A stretch of 64,000 nt of DNA from a phage (GCA_012557565.1 GCA_012557565.1_3926.1), one strand, 5' to 3'; shown: positions 5,329-39,958, counted from the stretch's first letter. The notes: generated from the letters alone by a model not told the origin. Program-made: numbers and translations.

Positions 5329-5463
5329 AACATTCTAAAGCATTCGAGAAAGTATTTGGCGATTCCATGAAAGCAACTGCTGGTAAACCTGCTGAATACT
5401 ATGTACAGAAGCGAGTTCGCATGGGTAAGACGGCTCGTAAAGCAGCTAAGAAACCTGCTTAAA
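5326..5463 (+). CDS. small basic hypothetical protein (45 aa)
   Basis: Own translation MKHSKAFEKVFGDSMKATAGKPAEYYVQKRVRMGKTARKAAKKPA; below track cutoff. Confidence 0.3.
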
Positions 5464-5547
5464 GTGTTTGACAAGGGAGTACGAAGTCTGTAAGATTGTA
5501 CTCCTTGATAGTTGAGTTGAAAGTTAATTTGAGAAAGAGGTATTAAA

Positions 5548-9662: not shown

Positions 9663-11897
9663 ATGATTACTACTATTCGCAAATCAGACGGTACAATCGT
9701 ACCATTCGAACCAGAACGTTTAAATAAATGGGCTTCATGGGCTGACAAGAGAGGAATTATCTGGTCAGAGGTTGTAATGGAAGCTATGAAGCGTGTCTAT
9801 GAAGGTTGCACAACGAAAGAAATGCACCAAGCTATGATTGACGTTTGTATTGATAAGCAAACTCAAGAGTACTCTGATATGGCTGGGAGGCTACTTCTTG
9901 GCATTATCTACAAAGAAGCTTTTGGTGGATTTACAAAGGTTCCTCAGTTACTTCCATTTGTGATGAAGATGGAGCAGATGGGACTTTGGGAACACATGGA
10001 TTACACACCTGAAGAGATTGACTACTTACAAGGTCACATCGTACATTCGAAAGATATCTCTTATGGGTATGCAGTGCTGAAGCAGTTCCGTGATAAGTAT
10101 GGAATCCGTGACATTAAAAGTGGTAAGCTGTTTGAGTCTCCACAGTTTATGTTCATGGGTATGGCTATGAAAGCCTTTGAAAGACAGCCTAAACAGCGTC
10201 GTTTAGATGATGTTATTAAGCTCTACACATATCTATCTGACCTGAAGATTAATGCTCCTACACCGTATCTGAATGGTCTGAGAGCTACAAAATCTGGCTA
10301 TGCTTCATGCTGCCTAATTAAAGCAAACGATACTGCTGAATCTCTTGGCATTGCTACAAAAGTAGCTTATGACATGACAACTAAGCAAGCAGGTATTGGT
10401 ATGCTGATGGAGACCAGAACAATTGGTGATGGAATCCGACAAAACACTATTGAGCATATGGGAAAACTCCCTTATTACAAGCTTGTACGTGCTGCTGTAG
10501 AAGCTAATAAGCAGAAGAGTCGTGGTGGTTCAGCTAATAACTTCTTCACTGCATTAGACCCACAGATTGAGGATTTGCTACGCTTGAAGCACCCTACAAC
10601 GGTTCCTGCAAAGCGTATTAATGAAATGGATTACTCATTTGGTGCAAATGATTACTTCTGGCAATGTGTACAGTACGATACAGATTGGTTGCTATTCTCT
10701 TACAAAGACGCACCAAGACTGTATGACATGTTCTACACAGCAAGTGCTGATGAATTTGCTATGGCAGTAGGTCACGCAGTTCATACAGGTGTTAAACATA
10801 AACGTGTAAAGGCTCGTGAAGTTGCCAAGTTGTTTATTCAGCAACGTTATGCTACAGGACGTGTTTACCCGTTCTTTACTAACAACGCAAACTATCATAC
10901 ACCTTTCAAAGAGCCTTTGAAAATGTCAAACCTGTGTATGGAGATTGTCTTACCAGTTCACGGTTTTGAGGATGAAAGAGACCTGTATAGCTACACAGCC
11001 AAGAAAGAAGATGGTGAAGTTGCTCTTTGCTTCCTAGCTAGTTTGGTTGCAGGGAGAATCACAGAAGATGAATACGCTGACGTTGCTTATTATGCTCTTG
11101 CAATGGTTGACTCCGTTATTGACCTTATGGATTATCCGTATCCGTCAATGCGTAACCATGTTCAGAAACGTCGTTCTGTTGGTATTGGTCTTACTAATGT
11201 GGCTCATTACCTTGCGAAGAACTATGTGAATTATTCATCAAGGGCTGGTAAAACTAAACTTCATGAGTTGGCTGAGATGCACTCTTACTTCTTGCATGAA
11301 GCATCTTTAAGACTTGCAAAAGAACGTGGTGTCCCAGAGTACATGCAGTTTACTAAGTACCCTGATGGTTGGGTTCCACCTAAGACTGCTAACAAGAAAA
11401 TTGATGAGAAGCACGATGCAAAACTTCGTTATGATTGGGATGACCTGTCACATCGAATTAAAGAAAATGGAGGTATCCGTAACTCTGTGTTAGAGGCTTA
11501 CATGCCTAATGAGAGTTCTTCTCTGGCAACTAACACGACAAACGGTCTGTACCCTATTCGTGACTTTATCTTAACTAAGAAGTCTGCAACTGGTAACGTT
11601 CTTTTTATTGTGCCTGATTATGAAGAGTTGAAGTATGTATATGAAATTGCTTGGGATATTGACACATTTGATATGATTGATTGCTATGCAATTGTTCAAA
11701 AATTCACTGGTCAAGCTATCTCTTCAGATTTCTATGTTGACTACTCGAAGTCTAAGAAGGTATCATTAGAGCAAGCTTTGAAGTACATGATTTATGCAAA
11801 CCTTGTTGGTTTGAAAACTATGTACTACCTTAACAGTCGTATCGGTGTTGGTAAATCAGCACTACAAGATGCCTACTGTGAGGGTTGTGGAGTTTAA
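9663..11897 (+). CDS. nrdA: ribonucleotide reductase class Ia large subunit
   Basis: 744 aa; ATP-cone-like N-terminus, NLCMEIVLP active-site block, C-terminal Cys pair (YCEGCGV). Confidence 0.9.
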   Translation: MITTIRKSDGTIVPFEPERLNKWASWADKRGIIWSEVVMEAMKRVYEGCTTKEMHQAMIDVCIDKQTQEYSDMAGRLLLGIIYKEAFGGFTKVPQLLPFVMKMEQMGLWEHMDYTPEEIDYLQGHIVHSKDISYGYAVLKQFRDKYGIRDIKSGKLFESPQFMFMGMAMKAFERQPKQRRLDDVIKLYTYLSDLKINAPTPYLNGLRATKSGYASCCLIKANDTAESLGIATKVAYDMTTKQAGIGMLMETRTIGDGIRQNTIEHMGKLPYYKLVRAAVEANKQKSRGGSANNFFTALDPQIEDLLRLKHPTTVPAKRINEMDYSFGANDYFWQCVQYDTDWLLFSYKDAPRLYDMFYTASADEFAMAVGHAVHTGVKHKRVKAREVAKLFIQQRYATGRVYPFFTNNANYHTPFKEPLKMSNLCMEIVLPVHGFEDERDLYSYTAKKEDGEVALCFLASLVAGRITEDEYADVAYYALAMVDSVIDLMDYPYPSMRNHVQKRRSVGIGLTNVAHYLAKNYVNYSSRAGKTKLHELAEMHSYFLHEASLRLAKERGVPEYMQFTKYPDGWVPPKTANKKIDEKHDAKLRYDWDDLSHRIKENGGIRNSVLEAYMPNESSSLATNTTNGLYPIRDFILTKKSATGNVLFIVPDYEELKYVYEIAWDIDTFDMIDCYAIVQKFTGQAISSDFYVDYSKSKKVSLEQALKYMIYANLVGLKTMYYLNSRIGVGKSALQDAYCEGCGV

Positions 11898-11904
11898 TTA
11901 AACA

Positions 11905-11925
11905 GGGGGCTGCAAAGCCCCTTTT
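11905..11925 (+). terminator. rho-independent terminator (weak T-run)
   Basis: GGGGC-tgcaaa-GCCCC then TTTT. Confidence 0.5.
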
Positions 11926-11934
11926 GGAGAAACC

Positions 11935-12210
11935 ATGTTAGAACTCATTCAAGATGCAAGGAACAGAGAACCAAACTGTGCTTTGTATCTGTATTATATT
12001 CCAAGAGAGTCTCTATATTATATTGCAGACTATCACCTGAAAGTTAAAATGCCAGATGGTTCTTGGAAAGAGCATCTTCGTTACATTGATTGCTTCAACC
12101 CAAGCAACACTTATGCAAGGTCTGTTGATATGTTTAAAGTTGACCGTTGGCAAGTTTTAACAGCGTCAGAAACCAGAGAATTTTATGAAACAGGAAACCT
12201 ACCATTATGA
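11935..12210 (+). CDS. hypothetical protein between nrdA and nrdB
   Basis: 91-aa ORF. Confidence 0.45.
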   Translation: MLELIQDARNREPNCALYLYYIPRESLYYIADYHLKVKMPDGSWKEHLRYIDCFNPSNTYARSVDMFKVDRWQVLTASETREFYETGNLPL

Positions 12211-27070: not shown

Positions 27071-27101
27071 TGTCTGCATGTTTAACAAAATAGGAGTGCA
27101 A

Positions 27102-27650
27102 ATGAAGAAATTTGTTTTAGGTTTGTGCTTATTCTTTACAGCACATTTAGCTACAGCATCTGACTGTCCAGAACTTACAATCAGTCAGAAAGTAAATATG
27201 TTAAAAGCATATAACTATGGCGAAGGACAGATGGGAAAAGGTTGGGGAATACCTTTAGCAGCTATAGCCTTACAAGAGTCACAATTAGGTGTCATGTTAG
27301 AAAATAAAAGGACTCATGATTATGGTGTTTTCCAGAATCACTTGAAGACTGTTGTAAAGCGTAACAAAATATCTCCAAAGGTTGCTAAGAAGAAGTTGGT
27401 AAGTGACTTCCATTACTCAGCAAAAGAGGCTCATAAAGAGTTGCTATTCTGGACAAAGGTTCACGGTAACCCAGATGGAAAGTACTCTATGAAGCGTGTC
27501 CTAGCTTCTTATAATGCTGGTTACAAATATAAGATTCCAAAGGCTAGACAATATTCTCAAGATGTGTACAATAACATGAAATTGCTTGCTCAATGTGAGT
27601 TTGCAACAAACATTAAAAAGGTAAAATATGAGCGAATCAAAACAATTTGA
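27102..27650 (+). CDS. secreted lytic transglycosylase (SLT)-like protein with signal peptide
   Basis: N-terminal MKKFVLGLCLFFTAHLATA signal-like segment; ALQESQLG ... DYGVFQ blocks resemble SLT catalytic-Glu region; start moved to ATG 27102 (AGGAG 8 nt upstream). Confidence 0.5.
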   Translation: MKKFVLGLCLFFTAHLATASDCPELTISQKVNMLKAYNYGEGQMGKGWGIPLAAIALQESQLGVMLENKRTHDYGVFQNHLKTVVKRNKISPKVAKKKLVSDFHYSAKEAHKELLFWTKVHGNPDGKYSMKRVLASYNAGYKYKIPKARQYSQDVYNNMKLLAQCEFATNIKKVKYERIKTI

Positions 27651-30501: not shown

Positions 30502-31296
30502 ATGGGTATCGTAAAAATTATTAAAGGTGATATCTTTAAAGACTTTGATAATAAGAAGTTTGATATCATTGGTCACGGTTGTAACTGCATGAACTTAATG
30601 GGTGCAGGTATTGCAGCAACAATTGCTAAACGTTATCCAAAAGCTTATGAGACTGATGCTGAAGTTTATGCTACAGTTGGTGGTGAAGGTCATAAACCTA
30701 AGCATCTTATGCTTGGTAACATCTCTGTAGCACGTTTTAAGCAGGGTCGAATTGCTAACCTTTACACTCAGGTTATCACTGGTAAAGATGCACGATACAA
30801 TGCTTTAGAAGCAGCTTTGCAGCGTCTTAATAACTACTGCAAAGTAAACCAGCTTAAGAAAGTTGGACTTCCTATGATTGGTGCAGGGATTGGTGGTCTT
30901 GATAGCATGGCTGTGCTGTCTATCATCAATCAGACCATGAAAGATGTTGACGTTTATATGTATGTCTATGAAGATAAGATGTACAGTCAGTTGACTAGTC
31001 CGGTTACTGGTTGGGAAAACTTTAGTGAACCTCAATACTTTGATGGTGTTGCCGTGGTAGGCAAGGATAAAGTTACTCTCAAGGTGAAGCGTAATGGTAA
31101 GGTACACACCAGTTACCCTCCGGTTGAGAAGTACAATCGAAGTAACGCTCAAGTTACCCACCCGTTACAAGGCCATTGTCACAGAGCCGTAACATTTGGT
31201 GATGATGCAAGTGTGTATATCGGTGCTGCTACAGAAGAGTTTGCAGAGGATTATATCACACATGAGAATGTTAACTATGTTGAAGCACGTAACTAA
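30502..31296 (+). CDS. hypothetical protein (GHGCNC...MGAGIA motif, possibly macro-domain-like)
   Basis: 264 aa; motif IIGHGCNCMNLMGAGIAATIAKRYP vaguely recalls ADP-ribose-binding macro-like folds; unverified. Confidence 0.45.
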   Translation: MGIVKIIKGDIFKDFDNKKFDIIGHGCNCMNLMGAGIAATIAKRYPKAYETDAEVYATVGGEGHKPKHLMLGNISVARFKQGRIANLYTQVITGKDARYNALEAALQRLNNYCKVNQLKKVGLPMIGAGIGGLDSMAVLSIINQTMKDVDVYMYVYEDKMYSQLTSPVTGWENFSEPQYFDGVAVVGKDKVTLKVKRNGKVHTSYPPVEKYNRSNAQVTHPLQGHCHRAVTFGDDASVYIGAATEEFAEDYITHENVNYVEARN

Positions 31297-31320: not shown

Positions 31321-31368
31321 AAGCCCTCCAAAGTTTGAGTTTAAAATCTCAGGTAAGGAGGGCTTTTT
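31321..31368 (+). terminator. hairpin terminator (long loop)
   Basis: AAGCCCTCC ... GGAGGGCTT then TTTTT. Confidence 0.55.
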
Positions 31369-31556
31369 CATTTCAAATTTGTGCAGGTGCAATTGCATAG
31401 AACTCTGGACAGATTTCTTTAGCTGAACTCCAAAGGGAAAATTCATTTTCAATTTGTGCAGGTCTAGACTCCAAAGGGCTTTTTCATTTTCAATCTGTGC
31501 AGATGCAGTTGGACTCCAAAGGGAAAATTCATTTTCAATTTGTGCAGGTAGGTAGC
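31357..31556. repeat. tandem array: terminator-derived copy plus three 41-45 bp direct repeats (units start 31428, 31469, 31514)
   Basis: Unit CTCCAAAGGG(aaaat/ctttt)TCATTTTCAAT(T/C)TGTGCAG(G/A)T; shared TGTGCAGG core also at promoter 27043-27070. Confidence 0.85.
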
Positions 31557-31722
31557 TATAGGAAGCAAGACCCACCATCCCCTCTTACTCCCCTTCCTCC
31601 CAAAAGTCAAGAGAAAAATTTGTAGAGAACTGAAAAATAATTCTTGACTAGTTTTCTGTTTTCTGTTAGTTGCGTACACGCGTTTCATTCACAACTTTCC
31701 AAAAATATTTTTAAAAATTTTG

Positions 31723-31751
31723 TTGACTCTATGAATCCAGTTTTGTAGTAT
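31723..31751 (+). promoter_or_regulatory. sigma70-like promoter opening the small-gene region
   Basis: TTGACT, 17-bp spacer, TAGTAT; followed by GGGGCAAGCAAGCCCC hairpin and the CCTAAACTGGAG leader. Confidence 0.5.
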
Positions 31752-31803
31752 TTGCATCAACGGGGCAAGCAAGCCCCAACAATCCTAAACTGGAGAATCT
31801 AAG

Positions 31804-32010
31804 ATGTTATATCAACGTGAATTAATGATTGTTGACAACAACAAAACAAAGAAACGCCGTTTTTATATGCTAATCTGCGACGTTTGGCAACGTATCTCAG
31901 AAAAGGATTTTGATAAATATGTTGATACGTCAATCAGGTCTGATTGTTACCTGACAAATCACACAAGACAATTTACAAGACATACGGCAATTTATTACTA
32001 TAACGTTTAA
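31804..32010 (+). CDS. hypothetical small protein (cassette gene 1)
   Basis: 68 aa; conserved leader upstream. Confidence 0.5.
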   Translation: MLYQRELMIVDNNKTKKRRFYMLICDVWQRISEKDFDKYVDTSIRSDCYLTNHTRQFTRHTAIYYYNV

Positions 32011-32021
32011 AGGGCTTGACA

Positions 32022-32183
32022 ATGATTAAAGAAGGTTATGTAATAAAGTACAAAGGGCAAGACGGATACACAAAGTTGGGACGTGTTTTCTATCTCTATA
32101 CTTCAGTGATGGGCAATGAGTGTATAGCCCTTACAAATGGCGACAAAATAACCATGAAAGATTTTATAAAAATTATTTCATAA
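32022..32183 (+). CDS. hypothetical small protein (53 aa)
   Basis: Own translation MIKEGYVIKYKGQDGYTKLGRVFYLYTSVMGNECIALTNGDKITMKDFIKIIS; no cassette; below track cutoff. Confidence 0.3.
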   Translation: MIKEGYVIKYKGQDGYTKLGRVFYLYTSVMGNECIALTNGDKITMKDFIKIIS

Positions 32184-32268
32184 AGTACTTTACATGGGGT
32201 TTATAAATTGCTAGTATAAGCCCCAGATAAAGAGCTTTACCAACAATCCTAAACTGGAGAATCTAAAA

Positions 32269-32649
32269 ATGAAATATCGTGCGCCTAAATTTATCAACAA
32301 AGAAAACTTTCGTGATGCTCTGGAAAATTCCATGAATGAGCAGTTCAAAGGTAAAATCATTGTTGTTCACGCTTACAATTTTAAGTATGATGTAAATGGT
32401 AACAAGATAAACCACTACACCGCTACAATGTTAGATGGTACACTCTCAGGAGAAAAGGCTATTATAAATGCACTGGCTGGACGTGGTAAAACGTTAATCC
32501 GTTGCGATAAGCGCCGCTATCAAGGAAGTGCTTATGGTTATGAGGATGCAATCTATCATCTTGATAACATGGGTTACAACGTGGTAAAAGCTGGAGTATC
32601 TCAAATGATTGGCAGTGATGGCTATGTAACAATCTTTGAAATTAACTAA
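32269..32649 (+). CDS. hypothetical protein (cassette gene 2)
   Basis: 126 aa; conserved leader. Confidence 0.55.
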   Translation: MKYRAPKFINKENFRDALENSMNEQFKGKIIVVHAYNFKYDVNGNKINHYTATMLDGTLSGEKAIINALAGRGKTLIRCDKRRYQGSAYGYEDAIYHLDNMGYNVVKAGVSQMIGSDGYVTIFEIN

Positions 32650-32734
32650 TAAAGTACTTTACATGGGGTTTATAGTTCGATAGGATAAGCCCCAGATAAA
32701 GAACTTTATCACTAACCTAAACTGGAGTTTTAAA

Positions 32735-32992
32735 ATGGCTACTATCAAAAATATCGTAATTACTGCAAAGTCCCGTGATGACGCTCGCGCAACTGCTAAA
32801 AAATTAAATGGCAAAGTGGTTGACAACGGAAAAGAATCTGCTGTAAGATGGGGTGTGAAGACAGACAAGAAATTAACCCTTAAACATAGTTCTTACAACA
32901 TGTTTAAAGGTGTGAAAACTATCGGTAACACTAACGTATTCACAAAGCAAGGTTACAAAATGCACTTATCATTAACTGACAATTTAATCTGA
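32735..32992 (+). CDS. hypothetical protein (cassette gene 3)
   Basis: 85 aa; conserved leader variant. Confidence 0.55.
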   Translation: MATIKNIVITAKSRDDARATAKKLNGKVVDNGKESAVRWGVKTDKKLTLKHSSYNMFKGVKTIGNTNVFTKQGYKMHLSLTDNLI

Positions 32993-33083
32993 TAAAGTGC
33001 TTTACATGGGGTTTATAAGTTGTTAGTATAAGCCCCAGATAAAGAGCTTTACTAACCAATAGTCCTAAACTGGAGATTCTAAA

Positions 33084-33596
33084 ATGAAAACCACTGATGC
33101 TATTTTTGAAGTTGTAAAAGAAAAATACACCATTATTTATGCAGCAGTTAATTTCTATGAGCCTTCCCATTGTGTGGATAACTGGCAATTTACTGATGAG
33201 CATAAAGGAGGGATTACAATCAAAGTTAAGAATGCAGAACGTAACAGCTACAAATATGCAATCCCTACGCATTACCCACTTTCACAGCTTGCCAGTGACT
33301 ACGCAAAACAGGGAAGGGATAACCCATCATTGGAAGCTTACAAGAGCTTACAGGATGAGCTAGAAAGGGATTTAGAAGCTAATAGTTATATCTTGTATGC
33401 CTCAGTAATTGACGCTGAAGGGAACACGGTTTTAAATAGTTTTTCTCTTGCGTACTCTTTTGATTGGTGCTATCTTGACGGGGAAGATTTAGAGACACGT
33501 TTAGAAGAGGAAGTGTCGAACTCTGACGGGGAGACTGAAGTGATGGAACGTTTAGAAGCCTTGAAAGATTCAGTTATGAATATCTTTAATATCTAA
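33084..33596 (+). CDS. hypothetical protein (cassette gene 4)
   Basis: 170 aa; conserved leader. Confidence 0.55.
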   Translation: MKTTDAIFEVVKEKYTIIYAAVNFYEPSHCVDNWQFTDEHKGGITIKVKNAERNSYKYAIPTHYPLSQLASDYAKQGRDNPSLEAYKSLQDELERDLEANSYILYASVIDAEGNTVLNSFSLAYSFDWCYLDGEDLETRLEEEVSNSDGETEVMERLEALKDSVMNIFNI

Positions 33597-33679
33597 AAGT
33601 GCTTTACATGGGGTTATCAAGTTGATAAGATAGCCCCAGATAAAGAGCTTTACCAACAATCCTAAACTGGAGAATCAAA

Positions 33680-33976
33680 ATGTTTATTGCCGCAAACGTT
33701 AGAACTAAATTAAGCCAACTATTAAACAACATTCAATTCATTGAATCTATGCGCCGTCAATCTGAAGCTGTAGAGTGGTATCATGGAAAGATTAACAAAA
33801 AAGAAGTAATAGTTTGTGTATGGAACTTTTGTAGAGAATACAAAAAGCCGTTGCTTCAGGTTGATATCTATGATAACACTAACAAGTCATCGATTAAGAC
33901 CACTAGAGATATGATTGATTCATATGAAATTAGTCACACTGGAAAATTATTTCACAAAGGCGTAAACAAATGTTAA
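33680..33976 (+). CDS. hypothetical protein (cassette gene 5)
   Basis: 98 aa; conserved leader. Confidence 0.55.
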   Translation: MFIAANVRTKLSQLLNNIQFIESMRRQSEAVEWYHGKINKKEVIVCVWNFCREYKKPLLQVDIYDNTNKSSIKTTRDMIDSYEISHTGKLFHKGVNKC

Positions 33977-34317
33977 TCACATATACAGCTATTTTTATCT
34001 CTATTGTGGCGCTCTATAAAGCCTTTAAAGCGCATCAGTTAGCTAATAAGGCAATCACAAGGGATTTAAAAATAAACCTTGTAAGGGGCTTTATAGAGCG
34101 TTTAAGCTTGGAACAATTGAAACGTTTAGAGATGAGCTTTCGATTTAAAGCGGAGACATACAGAATCGACAACATTCTAGCAGGTGATTTTAAGCTAATT
34201 AGTGATTATGACATACTGTTAGAAGCAATTCAAGATATAAATTTAAAAGATTATTACATCGTAATAGCTCAAGAAATTAATAAAAAAGAGCTTGCAATGA
34301 AAAACCAAAACAAGTAA
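33970..34317 (+). CDS. hypothetical protein
   Basis: 115 aa; overlaps upstream gene by 7 nt, no own cassette. Confidence 0.5.
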   Translation: MLITYTAIFISIVALYKAFKAHQLANKAITRDLKINLVRGFIERLSLEQLKRLEMSFRFKAETYRIDNILAGDFKLISDYDILLEAIQDINLKDYYIVIAQEINKKELAMKNQNK

Positions 34318-34382
34318 AGTATTTATCAACGGGGAGGGAAAACTCCCCCACTAAGCAAAATTCCTAAACTGGAGAATCTAAA

Positions 34383-34655
34383 ATGTATACAACTAACAAT
34401 GGTCATACCCTTAATGTAACTCTAAAGCACTATGTAGACGGTGTATTGAACTTTGAAGAGTTAAGAGCAGAACAGCATTTATTAGACTGGCAAGTAGCAG
34501 GACTGCAAAAAACTGCTACGGGGTACGGTACAAAAATTCCTACATCTTGGAAAGTACGCTATTTAGGAAAGTTACGAAGAATTTATCAAGATGTTTATAG
34601 CAATAGTGGTGTAAGTTACATTATTGTTAACGGTAAAAAGTTGTATTTAGTCTAA
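34383..34655 (+). CDS. hypothetical protein (cassette gene 6)
   Basis: 90 aa; conserved leader. Confidence 0.55.
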   Translation: MYTTNNGHTLNVTLKHYVDGVLNFEELRAEQHLLDWQVAGLQKTATGYGTKIPTSWKVRYLGKLRRIYQDVYSNSGVSYIIVNGKKLYLV

Positions 34656-34743
34656 TAAATTGCTTTACATGGGGTTATCAGGTTGATAAGATAGCCCCAG
34701 ATAAAGAGATTTATCTGACACTAACCTAAACTGGAGAATCAAA

Positions 34744-35151
34744 ATGACTACTATTAATCATAAAGAAGTTGCAATTCTGAAAGCACGTTTGACTATTAAC
34801 CGTATCAACATTGTCACATCAGCAGCACCAGATGAAACATTGCATAATATTATTGGTAAAATTCAGGGTGTAGTAGTAGATGTAAAACAGATTAAAGAAG
34901 CTTTACAAGACGTAGCAGCGGGGGCTATAATTGACGGCGCACAATATGAAATGCAGGAAATGCTTTCAAAATCTAGAGTAATGAATAAAGAATTAGACTT
35001 GAAGATGTTTCGATTTGCTGTTAAAGTATGGCTATGTGTTGATTTTGATGCTAACTTTGCAATAGCTGATTTCTTTGCTACATGGTTACAGCGTAATTTA
35101 CCATCAGAAAAATTTCGTGAAATTTGCGATGCAATTTATTCAGAAATTTGA
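34744..35151 (+). CDS. hypothetical protein (cassette gene 7)
   Basis: 135 aa; conserved leader. Confidence 0.55.
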   Translation: MTTINHKEVAILKARLTINRINIVTSAAPDETLHNIIGKIQGVVVDVKQIKEALQDVAAGAIIDGAQYEMQEMLSKSRVMNKELDLKMFRFAVKVWLCVDFDANFAIADFFATWLQRNLPSEKFREICDAIYSEI

Positions 35152-35232
35152 TTGACACTGCAAAAACATAGTAGTAAAGTACACATCAACGGGGCAAGCA
35201 AGCCCCAACAATCCTAAACTGGAGAATCTAAA

Positions 35233-35790
35233 ATGAAATGCTTTCATGGTACTACTCAAGAAAACTTTTTAAACCTTATCAATGGCGGTGAAAAACCATC
35301 AGGGGCTTGGAATTGCTCTGATATGGATGGATGTTTTTACGTGTACCCTGTTAATAAGTTCTATGATGTAGAAAGTTTAGACGACGAACAAATCACAAAC
35401 GAAGGTATTAGAAACGCGCTTGATAGCGCAAGCATTACAGCAGCGTATCAAATGAAGTCTCAAAAACTTGTTATCTTGGAACTTGACATTCCAGAGGAAG
35501 ATTTACAAGATGACTGGAGTTGTGAGAATATGAGCGACGTTGCAAGCTTTACAGAATACTTTGATAAGGCATGGATTAAAAAGATTTACACAACTGAATT
35601 TAACGCTATGTTTTCACCTTTCTTTGTTCCTAATCTGAATAACAAAAATTTGGGGTATATGCCTGACGAACTACACAACATTGCAACAATGGTACAGCGT
35701 AGCGATGAAATGAATAATGTGTATATAGATATCTATGAATCTATGCACGAAAACGTAGCAGAAACGGCTTTAAGCGATTTAACAGCATAA
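35233..35790 (+). CDS. hypothetical acidic protein (cassette gene 8)
   Basis: 185 aa; conserved leader. Confidence 0.55.
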   Translation: MKCFHGTTQENFLNLINGGEKPSGAWNCSDMDGCFYVYPVNKFYDVESLDDEQITNEGIRNALDSASITAAYQMKSQKLVILELDIPEEDLQDDWSCENMSDVASFTEYFDKAWIKKIYTTEFNAMFSPFFVPNLNNKNLGYMPDELHNIATMVQRSDEMNNVYIDIYESMHENVAETALSDLTA

Positions 35791-35853
35791 ACTATAGAAT
35801 CGTACCAGTTAACTAGAAAATCCCCGCATAGGGGCTTACAAGAGGCTTAAATA

Positions 35854-36084
35854 ATGCTTACAACAATCTATCTTATCCTGTCTATTTGCAACGGCTCACA
35901 ATGTGACTTCAAAGGATTAGAAGAGTTTACAGGAAGCGAAAACAATGCTATTGTAGCATGTCAGATAGCAAGGCAAGACTATCCCACATCGGATGATATA
36001 CAGTGTTACTATAAATCAGAAGATGAGGAGGGGATTTACTTTGATAGTGTGAATGGTGAATATGAAATTCTTATTGAAAAGTAG
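35854..36084 (+). CDS. hypothetical protein with N-terminal hydrophobic segment
   Basis: 76 aa; own CCCC-gcata-GGGG hairpin plus AAGAGG RBS. Confidence 0.45.
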   Translation: MLTTIYLILSICNGSQCDFKGLEEFTGSENNAIVACQIARQDYPTSDDIQCYYKSEDEEGIYFDSVNGEYEILIEK

Positions 36085-36171
36085 TTGACACTGGAAACGC
36101 AAACAAGTAAAGTATTTATCAACGGGGAGGGAATGACCTTCCCCAACAATCCTAAACTGGAGAATCTAAAA

Positions 36172-36513
36172 ATGGCATACGTAACAATTATCACTGATAA
36201 AGAAAACTCTTCTTGGTCTACACAAGTAAACGACAAAATGACACCTATGCAATGCCTCAAATACTTTGAGCAATGGAACAGGGGGGAAGATGTAAGTCCT
36301 TTCCAAGTAATGCAGGTTGTGCATGTTGACAATGAAGGGAACAAAACTACACTTAACACTGAATACTATGCTACACGTTTTGATACTCGCAAAGAAGCTA
36401 TGCGGGAACTAAGAGAAAAGGGCTATAGTCACATTGCCGCTTTGATTTGGTCTGATTTGCTTAAAAAACAAGCATTAACCTATGTCAAGCCAGAAAAAAT
36501 CTTTATAAGCTAA
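36172..36513 (+). CDS. hypothetical protein (cassette gene 9)
   Basis: Track ORF 36085-36513 trimmed to ATG 36172 directly after the conserved leader. Confidence 0.55.
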   Translation: MAYVTIITDKENSSWSTQVNDKMTPMQCLKYFEQWNRGEDVSPFQVMQVVHVDNEGNKTTLNTEYYATRFDTRKEAMRELREKGYSHIAALIWSDLLKKQALTYVKPEKIFIS

Positions 36514-36711
36514 TCAATGACTTACAAAAATCTTTGAAAAAACTGTTGACAATACCCCTTGACATTGATAGATTTGTTCGAGGGGGTTTATCTAAAGGGA
36601 TTCACTTAAAAGATTCTTTATAGATAAGCTGAAAATTCTCTTGCAATGGGTTATCAAAATCTGTATAGTTTCAATCAAGCAATGAAACAATCCTAAACTG
36701 GAGAATCTAAG

Positions 36712-36849
36712 ATGTTAGAAGTCATTAAAAACCCTATCTTGTGTGGAATGATTGTATCTTTCGTTATTCCTTTTGGTCTTCTGATAGCAAGTGAAATTCA
36801 AGATTATTTCTTCAATAAAAAGCTTGCAATGACCAACAAAAACAAGTAA
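36712..36849 (+). CDS. small membrane protein (45 aa, cassette gene 10)
   Basis: Own translation MLEVIKNPILCGMIVSFVIPFGLLIASEIQDYFFNKKLAMTNKNK; conserved leader; below track cutoff. Confidence 0.45.
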   Translation: MLEVIKNPILCGMIVSFVIPFGLLIASEIQDYFFNKKLAMTNKNK

Positions 36850-36911
36850 AGTACTTATCAACGGGGAAGGATAGGACTTCCCCACTAAATCCTAAACTGG
36901 AGAATCTAAAA

Positions 36912-37439
36912 ATGAATAAGTTTCAAGCTATCAATCATATCCGTTCCAATGCCGTGATGAGCAAGCCAGTAAAAGACACTTTCGAATTTCGCTGCAATGA
37001 CAAGTTGTTTGCAGTCATTACGAAAGGGGAGGATAAAAAATATTATGTACATCGCCAAAACGTTAAGGTAGTAACAGCAGATAACTTTATGCAAGCTGTT
37101 GCAACAATCCTCCCTGATTTTATGGCACTAGTCGCAGAACTTTGTGAACATTGCATCAAATCATCAAAAGAAGAGTTAAACCGCTTTAAAATGGCTTATG
37201 AGCGCTCTATCAAGTCCCATAACATGTATATCATGCCGTTGGCACATGGGATTATGGCGATGGGTACAGGTTGCCACCCTTGCAAGCTTTACGACGTAGA
37301 AAACATCTATCTAAGCGAGACAAAAGACAGTGATTTTAACTTACAGTTAGGGCAAGCATTGAATGATATGATTAAACTACACGAAAAATCTGTAAAAGAT
37401 ATGGAAAAAGAGCTTGACGAAATCATCAGAACTCTATAA
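36912..37439 (+). CDS. hypothetical protein (cassette gene 11)
   Basis: 175 aa; conserved leader. Confidence 0.55.
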   Translation: MNKFQAINHIRSNAVMSKPVKDTFEFRCNDKLFAVITKGEDKKYYVHRQNVKVVTADNFMQAVATILPDFMALVAELCEHCIKSSKEELNRFKMAYERSIKSHNMYIMPLAHGIMAMGTGCHPCKLYDVENIYLSETKDSDFNLQLGQALNDMIKLHEKSVKDMEKELDEIIRTL

Positions 37440-37498
37440 AGTACTCATCAACGGGGAGGGAATGACCTTCCCCAACAATCCTAAACTGGAGACTAGAA

Positions 37499-37762
37499 AT
37501 GAATAACGCAGAAATCACTATCCTGTTACAGATTGGTACTGACAAAGAAGATATCCAACTTTGCAAACGTATAGAAAGTGACTGGTTTAACGGTGAAATC
37601 ATCGCAGAATCTTATGAAGTAGTTGGATTCATGAATGGTGAAATTGTAAGCCATTTCGGTTTAACTAAATCTGAAGCCGTTGCAAAGTATGACGTTTTAT
37701 CTTGTGAGATTCTTACAAAATACAATGAAAAAAGACTTGCAACTTATGCAGCAATGAATTAA
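37499..37762 (+). CDS. hypothetical protein (cassette gene 12)
   Basis: 87 aa; conserved leader. Confidence 0.55.
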   Translation: MNNAEITILLQIGTDKEDIQLCKRIESDWFNGEIIAESYEVVGFMNGEIVSHFGLTKSEAVAKYDVLSCEILTKYNEKRLATYAAMN

Positions 37763-37827
37763 TATTACTTTCAACGGGGAGGGAATGACCTTCCCCACTA
37801 AACAACCCTAAACTGGAGACTTAAAAG

Positions 37828-38004
37828 ATGAATTTTGAACAGCGTATGATTGCAAAATTTGGTGCTAAACGTTGGGAAGAAATGAAAAAAGAGCATGAAG
37901 AAAAGAAAAATGAAGAGATGGTAGTCATCACTGGTACAGACTTGTTAAATCATTCAGTTACTAACTACATCATTTCCGGTAACTCTTACAAGAAAGTGAT
38001 TTAA
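37828..38004 (+). CDS. hypothetical small protein (58 aa, cassette gene 13)
   Basis: Own translation MNFEQRMIAKFGAKRWEEMKKEHEEKKNEEM...; conserved leader. Confidence 0.45.
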   Translation: MNFEQRMIAKFGAKRWEEMKKEHEEKKNEEMVVITGTDLLNHSVTNYIISGNSYKKVI

Positions 38005-38080
38005 AGTATTGACAAGGGGGCTTCAAAGCCCCTACTATAGAGACTCAATAAACAATAATCCTAAACTGGAGATTCTAAAA

Positions 38081-38329
38081 ATGGCAACTATCCGCGCAAC
38101 TGTTAACAATTTTGGTTTTTATGCTCTGGACGTTAAGTTTGACATGGTAAACACTGGAAATGCTTTTGATATGGTTGATATGTGTCTGAAAGCAACTGTG
38201 AAAGAATACAACCCTGCTGAATGGTTCTGGAAAGAAACGAAAGAGGAGATTTTAGCAAATGGCGTTTTATCTTACTATTGGGGCGATTCTCTTATCTCTA
38301 TCTATTACGATAAAGAAGGCCGCAACTAA
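38081..38329 (+). CDS. hypothetical protein (cassette gene 14)
   Basis: Track ORF 38009-38329 trimmed to ATG 38081 after the conserved leader. Confidence 0.55.
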   Translation: MATIRATVNNFGFYALDVKFDMVNTGNAFDMVDMCLKATVKEYNPAEWFWKETKEEILANGVLSYYWGDSLISIYYDKEGRN

Positions 38330-38369: not shown

Positions 38370-38391
38370 CAGCCCCTTCAATGGGGCTTTT
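38370..38391 (+). terminator. rho-independent terminator ending the plus-strand block
   Basis: AGCCCC-ttcaat-GGGGCT then TTTTT. Confidence 0.7.
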
Positions 38392-38814
38392 TGACGTCTA
38401 TACAGAACCCTTCCTAGAATCTTACCAGACCTTTAGAATAATAACTCTATAGCTTACTCTATATCATCTTATCAAGTCAACTAACTTTTCCCTTAAATAT
38501 AAGCCCATAACCCGAAAGGGAAGGGCAATCCCTAAAACGCCCTAAAACGCTCTATACGGGCTTATCATCTCATCTTAAGCAATCATATTAACCACTTCTT
38601 AAAAGCCCTTTATAGAGCTTTCTAGAGCCTTAAAAGAATCTTATAAGGGGTATAAGCTTTATTATCTCGTTAGTATCTTGTGAATAGTTAAACAGGGGCT
38701 TGATAATAGCTTCAAAGTATGCTATGGAGTCTAAAAAGAGCTTAAAAGTAACGTAAAAGTTAGCCCCCTTTACATTCTCTTAACAAAATCTTAACAAATG
38801 CAACATAGTTATGC

Positions 38815-38865
38815 TTGTTAGCCCCTTGTTAAATCCTTGTTAGTGGTATGTTAAGAGCTTGTTAG
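38815..38865 (+). repeat. phased array of 5 TGTTA(G/A) motifs at 11-bp spacing
   Basis: Motif starts at 38815, 38826, 38837, 38848, 38859; inverted-orientation copies (TTAACAA) at 38779 and 38790. Confidence 0.8.
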
Positions 38866-39126
38866 ACACTTTGAAGTCCCTGTATAAGCCCCTGTAAAGG
38901 GCTATAAAGAGCTATATAGTCAGTTGGGCTATAGATACTAGTAAGAACCTTAGAAGAGGTCACACAGAGCTATACAGGGCTTTTAAGAGGTATGTTTAGA
39001 GAATCACTGAGAGGGATAGGGAACGATAAGAGAAGAGATAGTGACCATGTTAATAGATTGTTAAACATGTTAAGAACTTAATAGACACTTGTTAATAATC
39101 TTAACAAAATAACTTTTAAATTTAAC

Positions 39127-39268
39127 ATGTTAGGGACTTGTTAGCATCTTGTTAGAACCTTGTAAGAACTGTTAAGCACTTGTTACACCCTTGTTAGTTC
39201 TGTTAAGAAACTGTTAAGAACTTTAGAGACTTGTTAGGGACTTGTTAGAGTTGTAAAGAAATTGTTAA
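39127..39268 (+). repeat. helically phased array of 14 (C)TTGTTAG-type motifs
   Basis: Motif starts 39127, 39138, 39149, 39160, 39169, 39180, 39191, 39200, 39211, 39221, 39231, 39242, 39251, 39262; spacings 9-11 bp, mean about 10.4. Confidence 0.85.
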
Positions 39269-39335
39269 TGATATTTTAAGATTTTGCAAAGGGGATGTTA
39301 CAGGGCTGTTAAGGGCTACTAAGCAGATATACATC

Positions 39336-39359
39336 CATGAGGTAGATTCTACCGAATCC
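39336..39359 (+). repeat. 24-bp direct repeat ATGAGrTAGATTCTAyCGAATCCA, copy 1 (internal GATTC/GAATC palindrome)
   Basis: Near-identical copy at 39959-39982. Confidence 0.75.
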
Positions 39360-39958
39360 ACTAGTAGATATTTTTCAGATTCTCCCAAGAACCTAAAAAG
39401 TGACCTACCTAGTCTATTTTATAAAAATTTTATAGAACTGAATAACTATCTATACACTATCTTATATAAAACAGGAATTAACAGGCTTATAAGATATCTT
39501 GTTAGTAACGTGTTAGACCTTGTAGGATAAGCCTTAGAAGGGAATACCTGTTTAGTGTTATATAACAGTCTATATAGAGGCTTAGTAATCCCTAGTGATT
39601 CTGCTATATAGGGTACTATCTTGGACATAATGGGTTACTGTTAAGTAACACAGATAACCTAGAGATTAAGATGGGTATAGGGGCTTCTAAGGGGCTAGGA
39701 AGAGGTTAGGAAGGTGATTGTATAGGGTTGATTAATGGTAGGCTTAGAAGGCTTTATAGAGGGCTATATAGAGAGCACTATTTAGGGACTAAGAGGCTAT
39801 ATAGATACTATATAATACTATATAGAGATGATGCTTAGAGAGGGTGTTTAGAAGGGTATAGATATTTTATCACATATCATGGTGACCCAAGATGAACGGA
39901 GTGAATCCCAAATTTTATAAAAATATAAATTTCGTAAATTTTACTCAATAAAAACCCC

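What the first reader, a model, noticed from the sequence alone, without database searches (positions are those of the whole stretch)
31723..38080. Fourteen small genes each carrying a near-identical promoter/hairpin/RBS cassette
In 6.3 kb, 14 of 17 small ORFs are preceded by the leader (A)CAATCCTAAACTGGAGAATCTAAAATG, far more conserved than a Shine-Dalgarno needs. Upstream of each leader is one of two cassette types: AAAGTAyTTTACATGGGG-loop-CCCC (overlapping a TTTACA-17-TAGTAT promoter-like element) or AAAGTAyTTATCAACGGGGAGGGAA-loop-TTCCCC. The gene products are unrelated to one another. This resembles the promoter-early stem-loop cassettes proposed to drive modular gene shuffling in hyperplastic regions of T4-type phages; the conserved GGAG leader could also be the target of a shared translational repressor or an SD-cleaving endoribonuclease.
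Basis: partly seen in the sequence, partly recalled or inferred. Interest (0 to 1): 0.75.

Follow-up and report, generated by a model that had tools for sequence, protein, structure and literature searches.

The report
Phage early-gene cassettes with shared leader
A Felix O1-like phage packs 17 small unknown genes into a block where 14 carry their own promoter, hairpin and an identical start-site leader; related phages swap genes exactly at that leader, as reported for T4-like phages, and part of the pattern was already published.

Summary
CCTAAACTGGAG occurs exactly 14 times in the window, all on the + strand at 31784-38071, each 7-9 nt before an ATG. Nothing else in 64 kb resembles it.

The window is a Felix O1-like myovirus (Ounavirinae), not a T4-type phage. 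All 14 leaders sit behind a sigma70-like -35/-10 pair with a 17-18 nt spacer. Five are type A, where a conserved, covarying hairpin of about 22 bp spans the whole promoter. Seven are type B, with a short GC hairpin at the predicted 5' end of the transcript. Two fit neither type.

Across 11 related genomes, 139 of 142 leaders keep the exact 12-mer. Single genes are gained, lost, replaced or moved with exchange points at that 12-mer. The window itself is a mosaic whose nearest relative switches at cassette boundaries. This matches the anatomy and behaviour of PeSL cassettes, now seen outside T4-like phages.

Prior art exists. The Felix O1 paper (2010) listed the repeats. The Mordin announcement (2015) reported the 26-bp leader as resembling mycobacteriophage start-associated sequences, role unknown.

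No RegB or RegA homologue is present. Extended 16S pairing does not explain the leader. In folding models the conserved CC pairs with the Shine-Dalgarno sequence.

The parts
31322..31369 (+). Intrinsic terminator after the macro-domain gene; upstream boundary of the cluster
   Evidence: Read directly from the sequence: agccctcc...ggagggct followed by ttttt. It corresponds to t13 of Felix O1.
31723..31803 (+). Cassette 1, type B. -35 TTGACT at 31723, -10 TAGTAT ending 31751, hairpin 31762-31777, leader core 31784-31795, ATG 31804
31804..32010 (+). Gene, 68 aa (family 5), unknown function
32022..32183 (+). Gene, 53 aa (family 6), no leader, abuts the preceding gene
32181..32268 (+). Cassette 2, type A. 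Long hairpin 32181-32239 enclosing -35 TTTACA at 32189 and -10 TAGTAT ending 32217; core 32248-32259; ATG 32269
   Evidence: (dG -26.4, z -4.8)
32269..32649 (+). Gene, 126 aa (family 7); absent from Moogle and Felix O1
32649..32734 (+). Cassette 3, type A. Hairpin 32649-32709, -35 at 32658, -10 TAGGAT ending 32686, core 32716-32727
32735..32992 (+). Gene, 85 aa (family 8); absent from Moogle and Felix O1
32993..33083 (+). Cassette 4, type A. Hairpin 32993-33051, -35 at 33001, -10 TAGTAT ending 33029, core 33064-33075
33084..33596 (+). Gene, 170 aa (family 9)
33596..33679 (+). Cassette 5, type A. Hairpin 33596-33651 (inner stem version TTATC/GATAG), -35 at 33603, -10 TAAGAT ending 33631, core 33661-33672
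33680..33976 (+). Gene, 98 aa (family 10)
33970..34317 (+). Gene, 115 aa (family 11), no leader, overlaps the preceding gene. Its last codons are encoded by the type B promoter sequence
34292..34382 (+). Cassette 6, type B. -35 TTGCAA at 34292, -10 TAAAGT ending 34320, hairpin 34331-34348, core 34363-34374
34383..34655 (+). Gene, 90 aa (family 12)
34655..34743 (+). Cassette 7, type A. Hairpin 34655-34714 (outer stem AAATT/AGATTT, the compensated version), -35 at 34664, -10 TAAGAT ending 34692, core 34725-34736
34744..35151 (+). Gene, 135 aa (family 13)
35152..35232 (+). Cassette 8, type B. -35 TTGACA at 35152, -10 TAAAGT ending 35180, hairpin 35191-35206, core 35213-35224. The 98% identity to phiSUSP1 ends exactly at its ATG (35233)
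35233..35790 (+). Gene, 185 aa (family 14)
35854..36084 (+). Gene, 76 aa (family 15), no leader; own SD AAGAGG after a small hairpin
36085..36171 (+). Cassette 9, type B. -35 TTGACA at 36085, -10 TAAAGT ending 36113, hairpin 36124-36144, core 36151-36162
36172..36513 (+). Gene, 113 aa (family 16)
36641..36711 (+). Cassette 10, no hairpin. -35 TTGCAA at 36641, -10 TATAGT ending 36669, core 36692-36703
36712..36849 (+). Gene, 45 aa (family 17), hydrophobic; absent from phiSUSP1, Moogle and PC79-13
36824..36911 (+). Cassette 11, type B. -35 TTGCAA at 36824 (inside gene 17), -10 TAAAGT ending 36852, hairpin 36863-36883, core 36891-36902
36912..37439 (+). Gene, 175 aa (family 18)
37414..37498 (+). 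Cassette 12, type B. -35 TTGACG at 37414, -10 TAAAGT ending 37442, hairpin 37453-37473, core 37480-37491
37499..37762 (+). Gene, 87 aa (family 19); variable among relatives
37737..37827 (+). Cassette 13, type B. -35 TTGCAA at 37737, -10 TAATAT ending 37765, hairpin 37776-37796, core 37807-37818
37828..38004 (+). Gene, 58 aa (family 20); present in only 4 of the 11 genomes
38009..38080 (+). Cassette 14. -35 TTGACA at 38009, hairpin 38016-38032 inside an 18-nt spacer, -10 TACTAT ending 38038, core 38060-38071
38081..38329 (+). Gene, 82 aa (family 21); last gene of the cluster
38372..38392 (+). Intrinsic terminator (gcccc ttcaat ggggc ttttt); downstream boundary of the cluster
   Evidence: Read from the sequence. 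A terminator is annotated at the equivalent place in Moogle and Mordin.

Best explanation
The interval is the hyperplastic early-gene block of a Felix O1-like (Ounavirinae) phage. It is built from self-contained expression cassettes that behave like the PeSL cassettes of T4-like phages.

Each cassette supplies a host sigma70 promoter, a hairpin, and a standard 5' leader (core CCUAAACUGGAG, containing the Shine-Dalgarno GGAG) placed 7-9 nt before the ATG of an unrelated small gene. Host RNA polymerase is inferred to start at every cassette soon after infection.

In type A, read-through RNA from upstream folds into a hairpin of about 22 bp spanning the next promoter. I infer that it insulates, processes or stabilises the upstream message. 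In type B, a short GC hairpin forms the 5' end of the new transcript, and I infer that it stabilises it.

The leader is identical in front of every gene, so it is the longest stretch of homology between neighbouring cassettes and between co-infecting relatives. Recombination there deletes, inserts, replaces or moves one gene together with its downstream promoter, without disturbing expression of the neighbours.

Shown here: the repeat, its restriction to this block, conservation and covariation of the hairpin, leader-bounded indels, one translocation, and mosaicism. Inferred: promoter activity, early timing, hairpin function, and the recombination mechanism.

The leader's conservation beyond GGAG is not explained by rRNA pairing. 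My best guess is that it forms a small hairpin containing the SD, which sets or regulates initiation for the whole gene class.
For: Repeat and scope:
- 14 exact cores occur only in this block.
- In the complete phiSUSP1 genome, all 14 exact cores and all type A and B marks lie in one 6.5-kb block on one strand.

Promoters:
- All 14 cassettes have a -35/-10 pair with a 17-nt spacer (13 cassettes) or 18-nt spacer (1 cassette), matching 8-10 of 12 consensus positions.
- In 41 distinct type B copies embedded in unrelated upstream genes, conservation peaks at an A-tract, TTGAC/TTGCA, and TAAAGT after a variable 17-nt spacer, then ATCAACGGGG.

Hairpin:
- Type A folds at -25 to -27 kcal/mol with z of -3.8 to -4.8.
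- On 46 distinct copies, 99.2% of cells are paired, against 31-65% when the partner is slid. One pair switches G-C to U-A in 10 copies. 0 of 500 shuffles reach the observed covariation score.
- The inner stem exists in at least four compensated versions. Erwinia phage M7 has GGTG..CACC.
- Frequent U.G pairs favour pairing in + strand RNA.

Shuffling:
- Gene maps of 11 genomes show single-gene presence/absence and replacement. Family 49 sits in two different slots.
- At junctions, the shorter form always has the upstream promoter, then the leader, then the downstream gene. Sequence 5' of the core follows the upstream gene, and the spacer after GGAG follows the downstream gene.
- Identity of 98% to phiSUSP1 stops at the ATG at 35233. 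The nearest relative changes phiSUSP1 > Mordin > Moogle > ESh22 at cassette boundaries.

Anatomy and timing:
- The anatomy matches the published PeSL definition and its subclasses, including mapped crossovers between the -10 and the ATG.
- In Felix O1 RT-PCR, ORFs 16, 20, 21 and 22 of the block peak at 5 min.
Against: - There is no transcript-start, reporter or recombination experiment for any Ounavirinae phage in the searchable literature.
- The generic promoter scan is not enriched over shuffles in this AT-rich region (32 found against 24.9 +/- 5.7). The promoter case therefore rests on position, spacing and conservation.
- None of the hairpins is followed by a T-run, so they are not canonical intrinsic terminators.
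- The Felix O1 RT-PCR places ORFs 17, 19 and 23 at 25 min.
- Exchange within a 12-27 bp identity is short for ordinary homologous recombination.
- Not every rearrangement is leader-bounded. Family 6 is lost in Mordin and Felix O1, and an intragenic deletion in KMM4 removes genes 18-20.
- Gene order is otherwise collinear, so 'shuffling' is mostly gain, loss and replacement.
- The SD is predicted to be mostly paired (0.28 unpaired against 0.46 in control genes). The leader is therefore not simply an optimally open ribosome binding site.
Confidence: 0.7

Rival explanations
1. The leader is mainly an operator for a trans-acting, phage-encoded post-transcriptional regulator (a translational repressor or an endoribonuclease). 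This factor would switch the whole immediate-early class off together. On this view, recombination at the leader is a by-product. This is compatible with the cassette reading for the promoter and hairpin.
For: - The 12-mer is invariant in 139 of 142 copies, while flanks and coding sequence diverge by 5-40%.
- Conservation goes well beyond the 4-nt GGAG, and 16S pairing does not explain it.
- The leader is confined to one gene class genome-wide.
- Erwinia phages use a different but related leader although host anti-SD sequences are the same (my knowledge). This fits co-evolution with a phage factor.
- The conserved CC pairs with the SD in models. All leader variants keep a small SD-containing hairpin built from different sequences. 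That is the usual form of a translational operator.
- GGAG followed by an A-rich tract is the context of T4 RegB sites (my knowledge).
Against: - No RegB or RegA homologue exists in the window or in the complete phiSUSP1 genome.
- RegB homologues appear only in T4-like records in the rows sampled from 1,138 hits.
- No candidate RNA-binding protein was identified.
- The mini-hairpin is only 3-4 bp (-0.9 to -3.6 kcal/mol), at the limit of what folding models can support.
- Felix O1 carries two leader variants in one genome.
Confidence: 0.3
2. The leader has no function beyond an ordinary Shine-Dalgarno sequence. Its uniformity would be concerted evolution: repeated recombination and gene conversion among cassettes and among co-infecting relatives keep the copies identical.
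For: - Exchange points map to the leader, and mosaicism is pervasive.
- Lineage-specific leader variants occur in Felix O1 and the Erwinia phages.
- Tandem partial cassette duplications occur in Mordin.
Against: - Conversion tracts would not be expected to stop so sharply. Information content falls from 2 bits to below 1 bit within a few bases on either side of the 12-mer.
- The core is identical across genera whose orthologous genes differ by 20-40%.
- All divergent variants retain the CC...GG pairing and the 7-9 nt spacing.
Confidence: 0.15
3. The block is one operon read from the first promoter (31723), as in the T7 early region. The type A hairpins would be RNase III-type processing sites that cut the polycistronic RNA into monocistronic messages. 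The internal -35/-10 matches would be incidental to the hairpin sequence.
For: - There are no internal intrinsic terminators between 31400 and 38370.
- Type A is an imperfect duplex of about 22 bp with internal loops, the general form of RNase III substrates (my knowledge).
- U.G pairs indicate selection on + strand RNA.
- The predicted cut zone and the predicted internal start site nearly coincide.
Against: - Type B, cassette 10 and cassette 14 have -35/-10 pairs that are not part of any long hairpin, yet they are conserved at exactly the hexamers with a variable spacer.
- The 17-nt spacing holds in 13 of 14 cassettes.
- PeSLs of the same anatomy were shown to be very strong promoters.
- Processing and internal promoters can coexist.
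Confidence: 0.1
4. The invariant core plus the imperfect hairpin is the site of a dedicated site-specific or structure-specific recombination system, a phage analogue of integron gene cassettes, rather than a substrate for general recombination.
For: - Exchange points resolve to a 12-nt core, which is short for homologous recombination.
- A conserved imperfect hairpin with internal loops lies next to the core in type A.
- One gene occupies two different slots.
- The PeSL authors raised the same possibility.
Against: - No recombinase was identified.
- Seven type B and two other cassettes lack the long hairpin but take part in the same exchanges.
- Identity around the core often extends to 20-27 bp, and phage recombination systems use short homologies.
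- Order is largely collinear.
Confidence: 0.04

Closest known systems
PeSL (promoter-early stem-loop) cassettes of T4-like phages (Arbiol et al. 2010, PMC2839356; Comeau et al. 2014, PMC4122927)
   Same: - The upstream stop codon lies in AT-rich sequence.
- There is a sigma70 -35/-10 pair with a 17-nt spacer.
- A GGGG...CCCC stem-loop with G.T pairs lies between or over the boxes, or just after the -10.
- An SD and ATG sit at the 3' end.
- The elements cluster among small ORFans.
- Indels and replacements between close relatives have crossovers between the -10 and the ATG.
   Different: - The host phage belongs to another family-level group (Ounavirinae, about 88 kb).
- The segment between promoter and ATG is an invariant 12-26 nt leader rather than just an SD.
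- The type A inverted repeat is about 22 bp and spans the whole promoter.
- Terminator activity, promoter strength and mini-circles, all shown for RB49/phi1, are untested here.
Start-associated sequences (SAS) and extended SAS of cluster K mycobacteriophages (Pope et al. 2011, PMC3203893; 2024 Adephagia paper, PMC11373665)
   Same: - A short asymmetric repeat containing the SD lies a few nt before the ATG of 11-19 unrelated non-structural genes, in one orientation and with ATG preferred.
- Conservation goes beyond rRNA pairing.
- About half the copies also have an upstream promoter with an imperfect inverted repeat.
- The role is unknown.
- The Mordin authors drew this parallel themselves.
   Different: - The sequence is unrelated (GGGATAGGAGCCC against CCTAAACTGGAG), and so are the host phylum and the phage type.
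- ESAS repeats were judged not to covary as RNA, whereas the type A stem here does.
- SAS sites are spread over a genome arm, while here all copies sit in one contiguous 6.5-kb block.
- Leader-bounded gene exchange has not been described for SAS.
T4 RegB (GGAG-cleaving endoribonuclease) and RegA (translational repressor) control of early mRNAs
   Same: A class of early messages shares a GGAG Shine-Dalgarno sequence in an A-rich context that could be hit together (sequence; RegB and RegA properties from the T4 annotation, and from my knowledge).
   Different: No RegB or RegA homologue is present. T4 targets do not share a long invariant leader.
RNase III processing hairpins between phage T7 early genes (my knowledge, not checked here)
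   Same: Long imperfect hairpins sit between consecutive early genes with no terminator function.
   Different: T7 early genes share upstream promoters only. Here each hairpin encloses its own -35/-10 pair.

Membership tests
PeSL cassettes | Repeated composite intergenic motif concentrated in a variable region of small ORFan genes | tested here: met
   There are 14 copies in 6.4 kb and none elsewhere. The 17 products lack domains. Gene content varies among 11 genomes.
PeSL cassettes | sigma70-type -35 and -10 boxes about 17 nt apart with AT-rich sequence upstream | tested here: met
   All 14 cassettes have such a pair, with 8-10 of 12 matches and a 17-nt spacer in 13. The conservation profile shows an A-tract, the -35 and the -10. 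This is sequence evidence only; activity was not tested.
PeSL cassettes | Stable stem-loop with G-run/C-run and G.T pairs, placed within, over or next to the promoter | tested here: met
   12 of 14 cassettes have the expected hairpin and cassette 14 has a spacer hairpin. The stem is conserved with covariation, and U.G pairs are common.
PeSL cassettes | Element begins at the upstream stop codon and ends with SD and ATG | tested here: met
   The stop codon TAA lies inside aTAAAGT in types A and B, and GGAG sits 7-9 nt before the ATG.
PeSL cassettes | Indels and replacements between close relatives with crossovers inside the element | tested here: met
   Junction analysis, mosaic identity table, and the break at 35233. 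Exceptions are noted.
PeSL cassettes | Stem-loop acts as transcription terminator or attenuator | not testable with these tools
   No T-run follows any hairpin. A reporter assay is needed.
PeSL cassettes | Neighbouring elements recombine to give mini-circles | not testable with these tools
   This needs inverse PCR or deep sequencing of lysates.
PeSL cassettes | Described in T4-like myoviruses | tested here: not met
   The window and all 288 cassette-bearing records are Ounavirinae. This concerns the scope of the original description, not the mechanism.
SAS / ESAS | Short asymmetric repeat containing the SD, a few nt before the start codon of a subset of genes, in one orientation | tested here: met
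SAS / ESAS | Consensus 5'-GGGATAGGAGCCC | tested here: not met
   The core here is CCTAAACTGGAG, so it is not the same sequence family.
SAS / ESAS | Conserved positions that cannot pair with 16S rRNA | tested here: met
   Only GGAG pairs with the anti-SD. The longest complement anywhere in 16S is 6 nt, below the shuffled median of 7.
SAS / ESAS | A subset has an upstream promoter with an imperfect inverted repeat | tested here: met
   5 of 14 cassettes are type A.
RegB-type SD cleavage | RegB-family endoribonuclease encoded by the phage | tested here: not met
   BLASTP E = 53 against the ORF annotated as RegB-like, which is a Vs.1 homologue at E = 6e-14. tblastn best E is 1.5 in the window and 1.8 in the complete phiSUSP1 genome. 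The sampled rows of 1,138 RegB-bearing records are all T4-like.
RegB-type SD cleavage | Cleavage within GGAG of early messages | not testable with these tools
   This needs 5'-end mapping during infection.
RegA-type translational repression | RegA-family repressor encoded by the phage | tested here: not met
   tblastn best E is 6 in the window and 0.6 in phiSUSP1.

The most novel reading that the evidence does not exclude
The leader is the cis-acting operator of an unrecognised phage-encoded RNA-binding regulator. Its form would be a small hairpin in which a conserved CC(U) pairs with the Shine-Dalgarno sequence, with loop UAAACU. The regulator would gate translation or decay of the whole immediate-early class, and the operator would co-evolve with it (enteric against Erwinia variants). 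This would be a new RegA/RegB-like circuit unrelated in sequence. It would also be the first tractable E. coli model for the unsolved 'start-associated sequence' problem of mycobacteriophages.
Probability: 0.25. Interest if true: 0.7.

Novelty: new variant of a known kind. Interest (0 to 1): 0.5.

Why it matters
If the reading holds, promoter-hairpin cassettes that let a phage add, drop and swap small early genes without disturbing their neighbours are not peculiar to T4-like phages. They would be a recurrent design, also present in Felix O1-like phages and in form resembling the ESAS/SAS elements of mycobacteriophages.

The block is a ready-made map of exchangeable accessory genes, probably host-takeover or anti-defence genes, in a phage group widely used for Salmonella and E. 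coli typing, biocontrol and therapy.

The invariant leader poses the same unanswered question as SAS: why conserve far more than a Shine-Dalgarno sequence? Here the question arises in phages of E. coli K-12, where reporters, host mutants and infection time-courses are easy.

Practically, the cassette is a compact, standardised expression unit, and the leader is a natural landing site for engineering these phages.

Tried and rejected
1. RegB lead. The Mordin record calls the gene after rIIB 'similar to T4 RegB'. The window's equivalent (27078-27650) is a homologue of T4 Vs.1, the neighbour of regB (E = 6e-14), and not of RegB (E = 53). It has only a weak SLT hit and a signal-peptide-like N-terminus. 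The label traces to Felix O1 ORF3, 'protein in vs-regB intergenic region'.
2. RegB and RegA elsewhere. None in the window or in the complete phiSUSP1 genome. The sampled rows of RegB-bearing phage records are all T4-like.
3. Extended mRNA-16S pairing as the reason for leader conservation. Rejected, because the longest complement is 6 nt and shuffled leaders do better.
4. 'Maximally open RBS'. Not supported, because the SD is predicted to be more paired than in control genes.
5. Rfam. No family matches (two chance hits with E above 0.6).
6. Hairpins as canonical intrinsic terminators. Rejected, because there are no T-runs.
7. TAAACT as a -10-like element, either a second promoter or a sigma70-dependent pause. 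There is no suitably spaced -35, the element lies about +30 to +45 from the predicted start, and the Erwinia variants lose the key T. Not pursued.
8. TAAAGNNCTTTA as a protein operator. It is better explained as part of the long type A stem, because the two arms covary and several inner-stem versions coexist in one genome.
9. A weak leader-like hit before the Vs.1 gene of Felix O1 and PC79-13 (ACTAAACAGGAG) is not a true copy, and the window lacks it.
10. One literature search was badly framed and returned nothing useful on Ounavirinae transcript maps.

Full report
**What is there.** The 12-mer CCTAAACTGGAG occurs exactly 14 times in the 64-kb window. All copies are on the + strand between 31784 and 38071. 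Chance gives 0.23, and no shuffle reaches 14. Each copy is followed 7-9 nt later by the ATG of a small ORF. A weight matrix built only from leaders of ten other phages scores these 14 sites at 31.7-40.4 bits. Nothing else in the window scores above 12, and shuffles peak at 9.5. The block holds 17 + strand genes of 45-185 aa. The three without a leader abut or overlap the gene before them. The products fall into 17 separate BLAST families. The nine cluster products scanned against PHROGs each match a different family of unknown function. None of the 17 has a Pfam domain. The block is bounded by two ordinary terminators, at 31322-31369 and 38372-38392.

**Whose genome.** The window is a Felix O1-like myovirus of the subfamily Ounavirinae. 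The first half of the interval is 98% identical to Escherichia phage phiSUSP1. Other parts are closest to Citrobacter phages Moogle and Mordin. It is not a T4-type phage, although it shares rIIA/rIIB and a Vs.1 homologue with T4.

**Anatomy.** All 14 leaders sit 50-70 nt downstream of a sigma70-like -35/-10 pair. The spacer is 17 nt in 13 cases and 18 nt in one, with 8-10 of 12 consensus matches.
- Five cassettes are type A (TTTACA-N17-TAGTAT, TAAGAT or TAGGAT).
- Seven are type B (TTGACA or TTGCAA-N17-TAAAGT, TAGTAT or TAATAT).
- One (36641) has a promoter and no hairpin. One (38009) has a short hairpin inside the spacer.

The generic promoter scan is not enriched over shuffles in this AT-rich DNA (32 found against 24.9 +/- 5.7). 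The case for promoters therefore rests on fixed position, spacing and conservation. In 41 distinct type B copies from 11 genomes, which lie in the 3' ends of unrelated upstream genes, conservation peaks at an A-tract, at TTGAC/TTGCA, at TAAAGT after a variable 17-nt spacer, and at ATCAACGGGG.

It is an imperfect hairpin of about 21-23 bp running from the upstream stop codon (aTAAAGTrCTTTACATGGGG...) to about +12 (...CCCCAGATAAAGAGCTTTAy). It folds at -25 to -27 kcal/mol with z of -3.8 to -4.8. On 46 distinct copies the consensus structure has 99.2% of cells paired, against 31-65% when partners are slid. One pair switches G-C to U-A in 10 copies, and no shuffle reaches the observed covariation score. 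These copies are related by descent, so the number of independent events is small. The inner stem exists in at least four compensated versions within and between genomes. An Erwinia phage has GGTG..CACC in place of GGGG..CCCC. Frequent U.G pairs point to pairing in + strand RNA. The coexistence of different stem sequences in one genome argues against a sequence-specific DNA-binding protein. Type B has a GC stem of 5-8 bp at the predicted +8 to +28 of its own transcript. No hairpin is followed by a T-run.

**Comparative test.** I mapped genes and cassettes in ten relatives: phiSUSP1, Moogle, Mordin, Silverhawkium, ESh22, KMM4, SFPB, Sf19, PC79-13 and Felix O1.
- Order is collinear, but single genes come and go. 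Families 7, 8, 17, 19, 20, 32, 33, 46 and 48 vary.
- One slot holds alternative genes (32 or 57).
- Family 49 sits in two different slots.
- Felix O1 has 9 genes where the window has 17.

At base resolution the shorter genome always has the promoter and hairpin of the first cassette, then the leader, then the gene that follows the second cassette. Sequence 5' of the core travels with the upstream gene. The spacer after GGAG travels with the downstream gene, for example GGAGACTAGAA-ATG always with family 19. Exchange points therefore fall in or at the invariant core. The 98% identity to phiSUSP1 ends exactly at the ATG at 35233.

Gene-by-gene identities show a mosaic:

| Window genes (families) | Nearest relative | Nucleotide identity |
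|---|---|---|
| 5-13 | phiSUSP1 | 96-99.8% |
| 14-15 | Mordin | ~95% |
| 16, 18, 19 | Moogle | ~95% |
| 17 | Silverhawkium | 88% |
| 20-21 | ESh22 / KMM4 | 98-99% |

Exceptions exist. The loss of family 6 in Mordin and Felix O1, and a deletion within genes 18-20 in KMM4, are not leader-bounded.

**The leader.** Across the 11 loci there are 142 leaders, and 139 carry the exact 12-mer. Information content drops sharply a few bases either side. In the complete phiSUSP1 genome, all 14 exact copies and all type A and B marks lie in one 6.5-kb block. The cassette occurs in 288 phage records, essentially all Ounavirinae. Erwinia phage M7 has the same architecture with related but distinct leaders (CCTTATAAAGGAA, CCTTAAACAGGAA). 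Felix O1 has a second variant (CCTTAAACTAGGAG).

Only GGAG pairs with the anti-SD. The longest complement of the leader anywhere in E. coli 16S rRNA is 6 nt, below the median for shuffled leaders. In predicted primary transcripts the SD is mostly paired (mean unpaired probability 0.28, against 0.46 for 24 other genes in the window). Its partner is the conserved CC (median pair probability about 0.87), and CC>AA in silico restores 0.43. All four leader variants keep a small SD-containing hairpin made from different sequences, with energies of only -0.9 to -3.6 kcal/mol. I treat this as a lead, not a result.

**Candidates for a trans-acting factor.** The ORF annotated in Mordin as 'similar to RegB' corresponds to window 27078-27650. 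It is a homologue of T4 Vs.1 (E = 6e-14), not of RegB (E = 53). Neither RegB nor RegA has a homologue in the window or in the complete phiSUSP1 genome. RegB homologues occur in 1,138 phage records, and the sampled rows are all T4-like. Rfam has no matching family.

**What is known.**
- PeSLs of T4-like phages are defined by the upstream stop codon in AT-rich sequence, sigma70 boxes, a GGGG...CCCC stem-loop with G.T pairs in one of five positions relative to the promoter, and an SD and ATG. They are located among ORFans, and mapped crossovers fall between the -10 and the ATG. Promoter and terminator activities were shown by reporters. Every sequence-level feature is met here. The activities and mini-circles are untested, and the taxonomic scope differs. 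In the searchable literature PeSLs are described only in T4-like phages.
- The Felix O1 genome paper listed the 57-bp and 39-bp repeats that are the type A and B cassettes, but did not interpret them. It also stated that temporal control was unknown.
- The Mordin announcement reported the 26-bp leader upstream of 8 genes and likened it to the start-associated sequences of cluster K mycobacteriophages, role unknown.
- SAS/ESAS share the form: an SD-containing repeat before unrelated non-structural genes, half with an upstream promoter plus inverted repeat. Their role was still unknown in 2024.
- Felix O1 RT-PCR puts four genes of the block at peak expression at 5 min and three at 25 min.

**Verdict.** The finding is real and striking. 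It is best read as a PeSL-like set of early-gene expression cassettes in a second phage group, carrying an SAS-like invariant leader that doubles as the exchange point. Parts were already noticed in print. What is new here:
- the link between promoter, hairpin and leader;
- the true extent and covariation of the hairpin;
- the leader-bounded indels and the mosaic;
- the exclusion of RegB, RegA and rRNA pairing;
- the SD-pairing lead.

What the leader does beyond providing GGAG remains open.

Noticed in passing
window 31372-31560 (tandem array called at 31427-31549): There are about three to four direct copies of a ~45-bp unit (ACTCCAAAGGGAAAATTCATTTTCAATTTGTGCAGGT...). They lie in the non-coding gap between the macro-gene terminator and the first cassette promoter. 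The function is unknown; they could be iteron-like or regulator-binding sites.
   Followed up: no
window 36514-36640: A 200-bp gap between genes 16 and 17 holds two hairpins. One is a 16-bp imperfect stem (GUUUAUCUAAAGGGAUUC...GAUUCUUUAUAGAUAAGC). Its sequence (aaagggattcacttaaaagattctttatagataagc) is conserved upstream of family 17 or 18 in all relatives. It is not part of the cassette pattern and is unexplained.
   Followed up: partly
window 38400-39950: About 1.6 kb of non-coding DNA lies between the cluster and the convergent - strand genes. It is packed with short repeats, for example an 11-nt period repeated 11.7 times at 39128-39250 and CCCTAAAACG repeated 2.5 times. The same gene-free gap exists in Moogle, Felix O1 and phiSUSP1, and several GenBank records start or end near it. 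It could be an origin or a packaging or terminal region.
   Followed up: no
window 27078-27650: This ORF is a homologue of T4 Vs.1 (31% identity, E = 6e-14), with a signal-peptide-like N-terminus and a weak SLT hit. The Mordin GenBank note 'similar to T4 endoribonuclease RegB' is an annotation slip that could mislead others.
   Followed up: yes
window 34292-34317 and 36824-36849: The type B promoter (-35 through -10) is translated as the C-terminus of the upstream gene. As a result, unrelated proteins 11 and 17 end in the same peptide (K-[EK]-L-A-M-x-N-x-N-K-stop), and the stop codon lies inside the -10 TAAAGT. The cassettes therefore contribute coding sequence to their upstream neighbours.
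   Followed up: partly
L003 (Mordin) 5407-5551: One and a half type A cassettes lie in tandem, joined at the CTTTAC sub-repeat (...CCCCAGATAAAGAGCTTTACCAA|CTTTACATGGGG...), where gene 6 is missing. This looks like a scar of recombination within the cassette rather than at the leader.
   Followed up: no
window 30502-31296: A macro-domain protein (Pfam Macro, E = 7e-8) is encoded immediately upstream of the cassette block and is conserved in all relatives. It is probably an ADP-ribose-binding or -removing early function.
   Followed up: no
L011 (Felix O1) 9983-12057: Felix O1 carries two leader variants in one genome. CCTAAACTGGAG follows type A cassettes, and CCTTAAACTAGGAG follows type B cassettes. 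This would limit A-to-B exchanges in that lineage.
   Followed up: no
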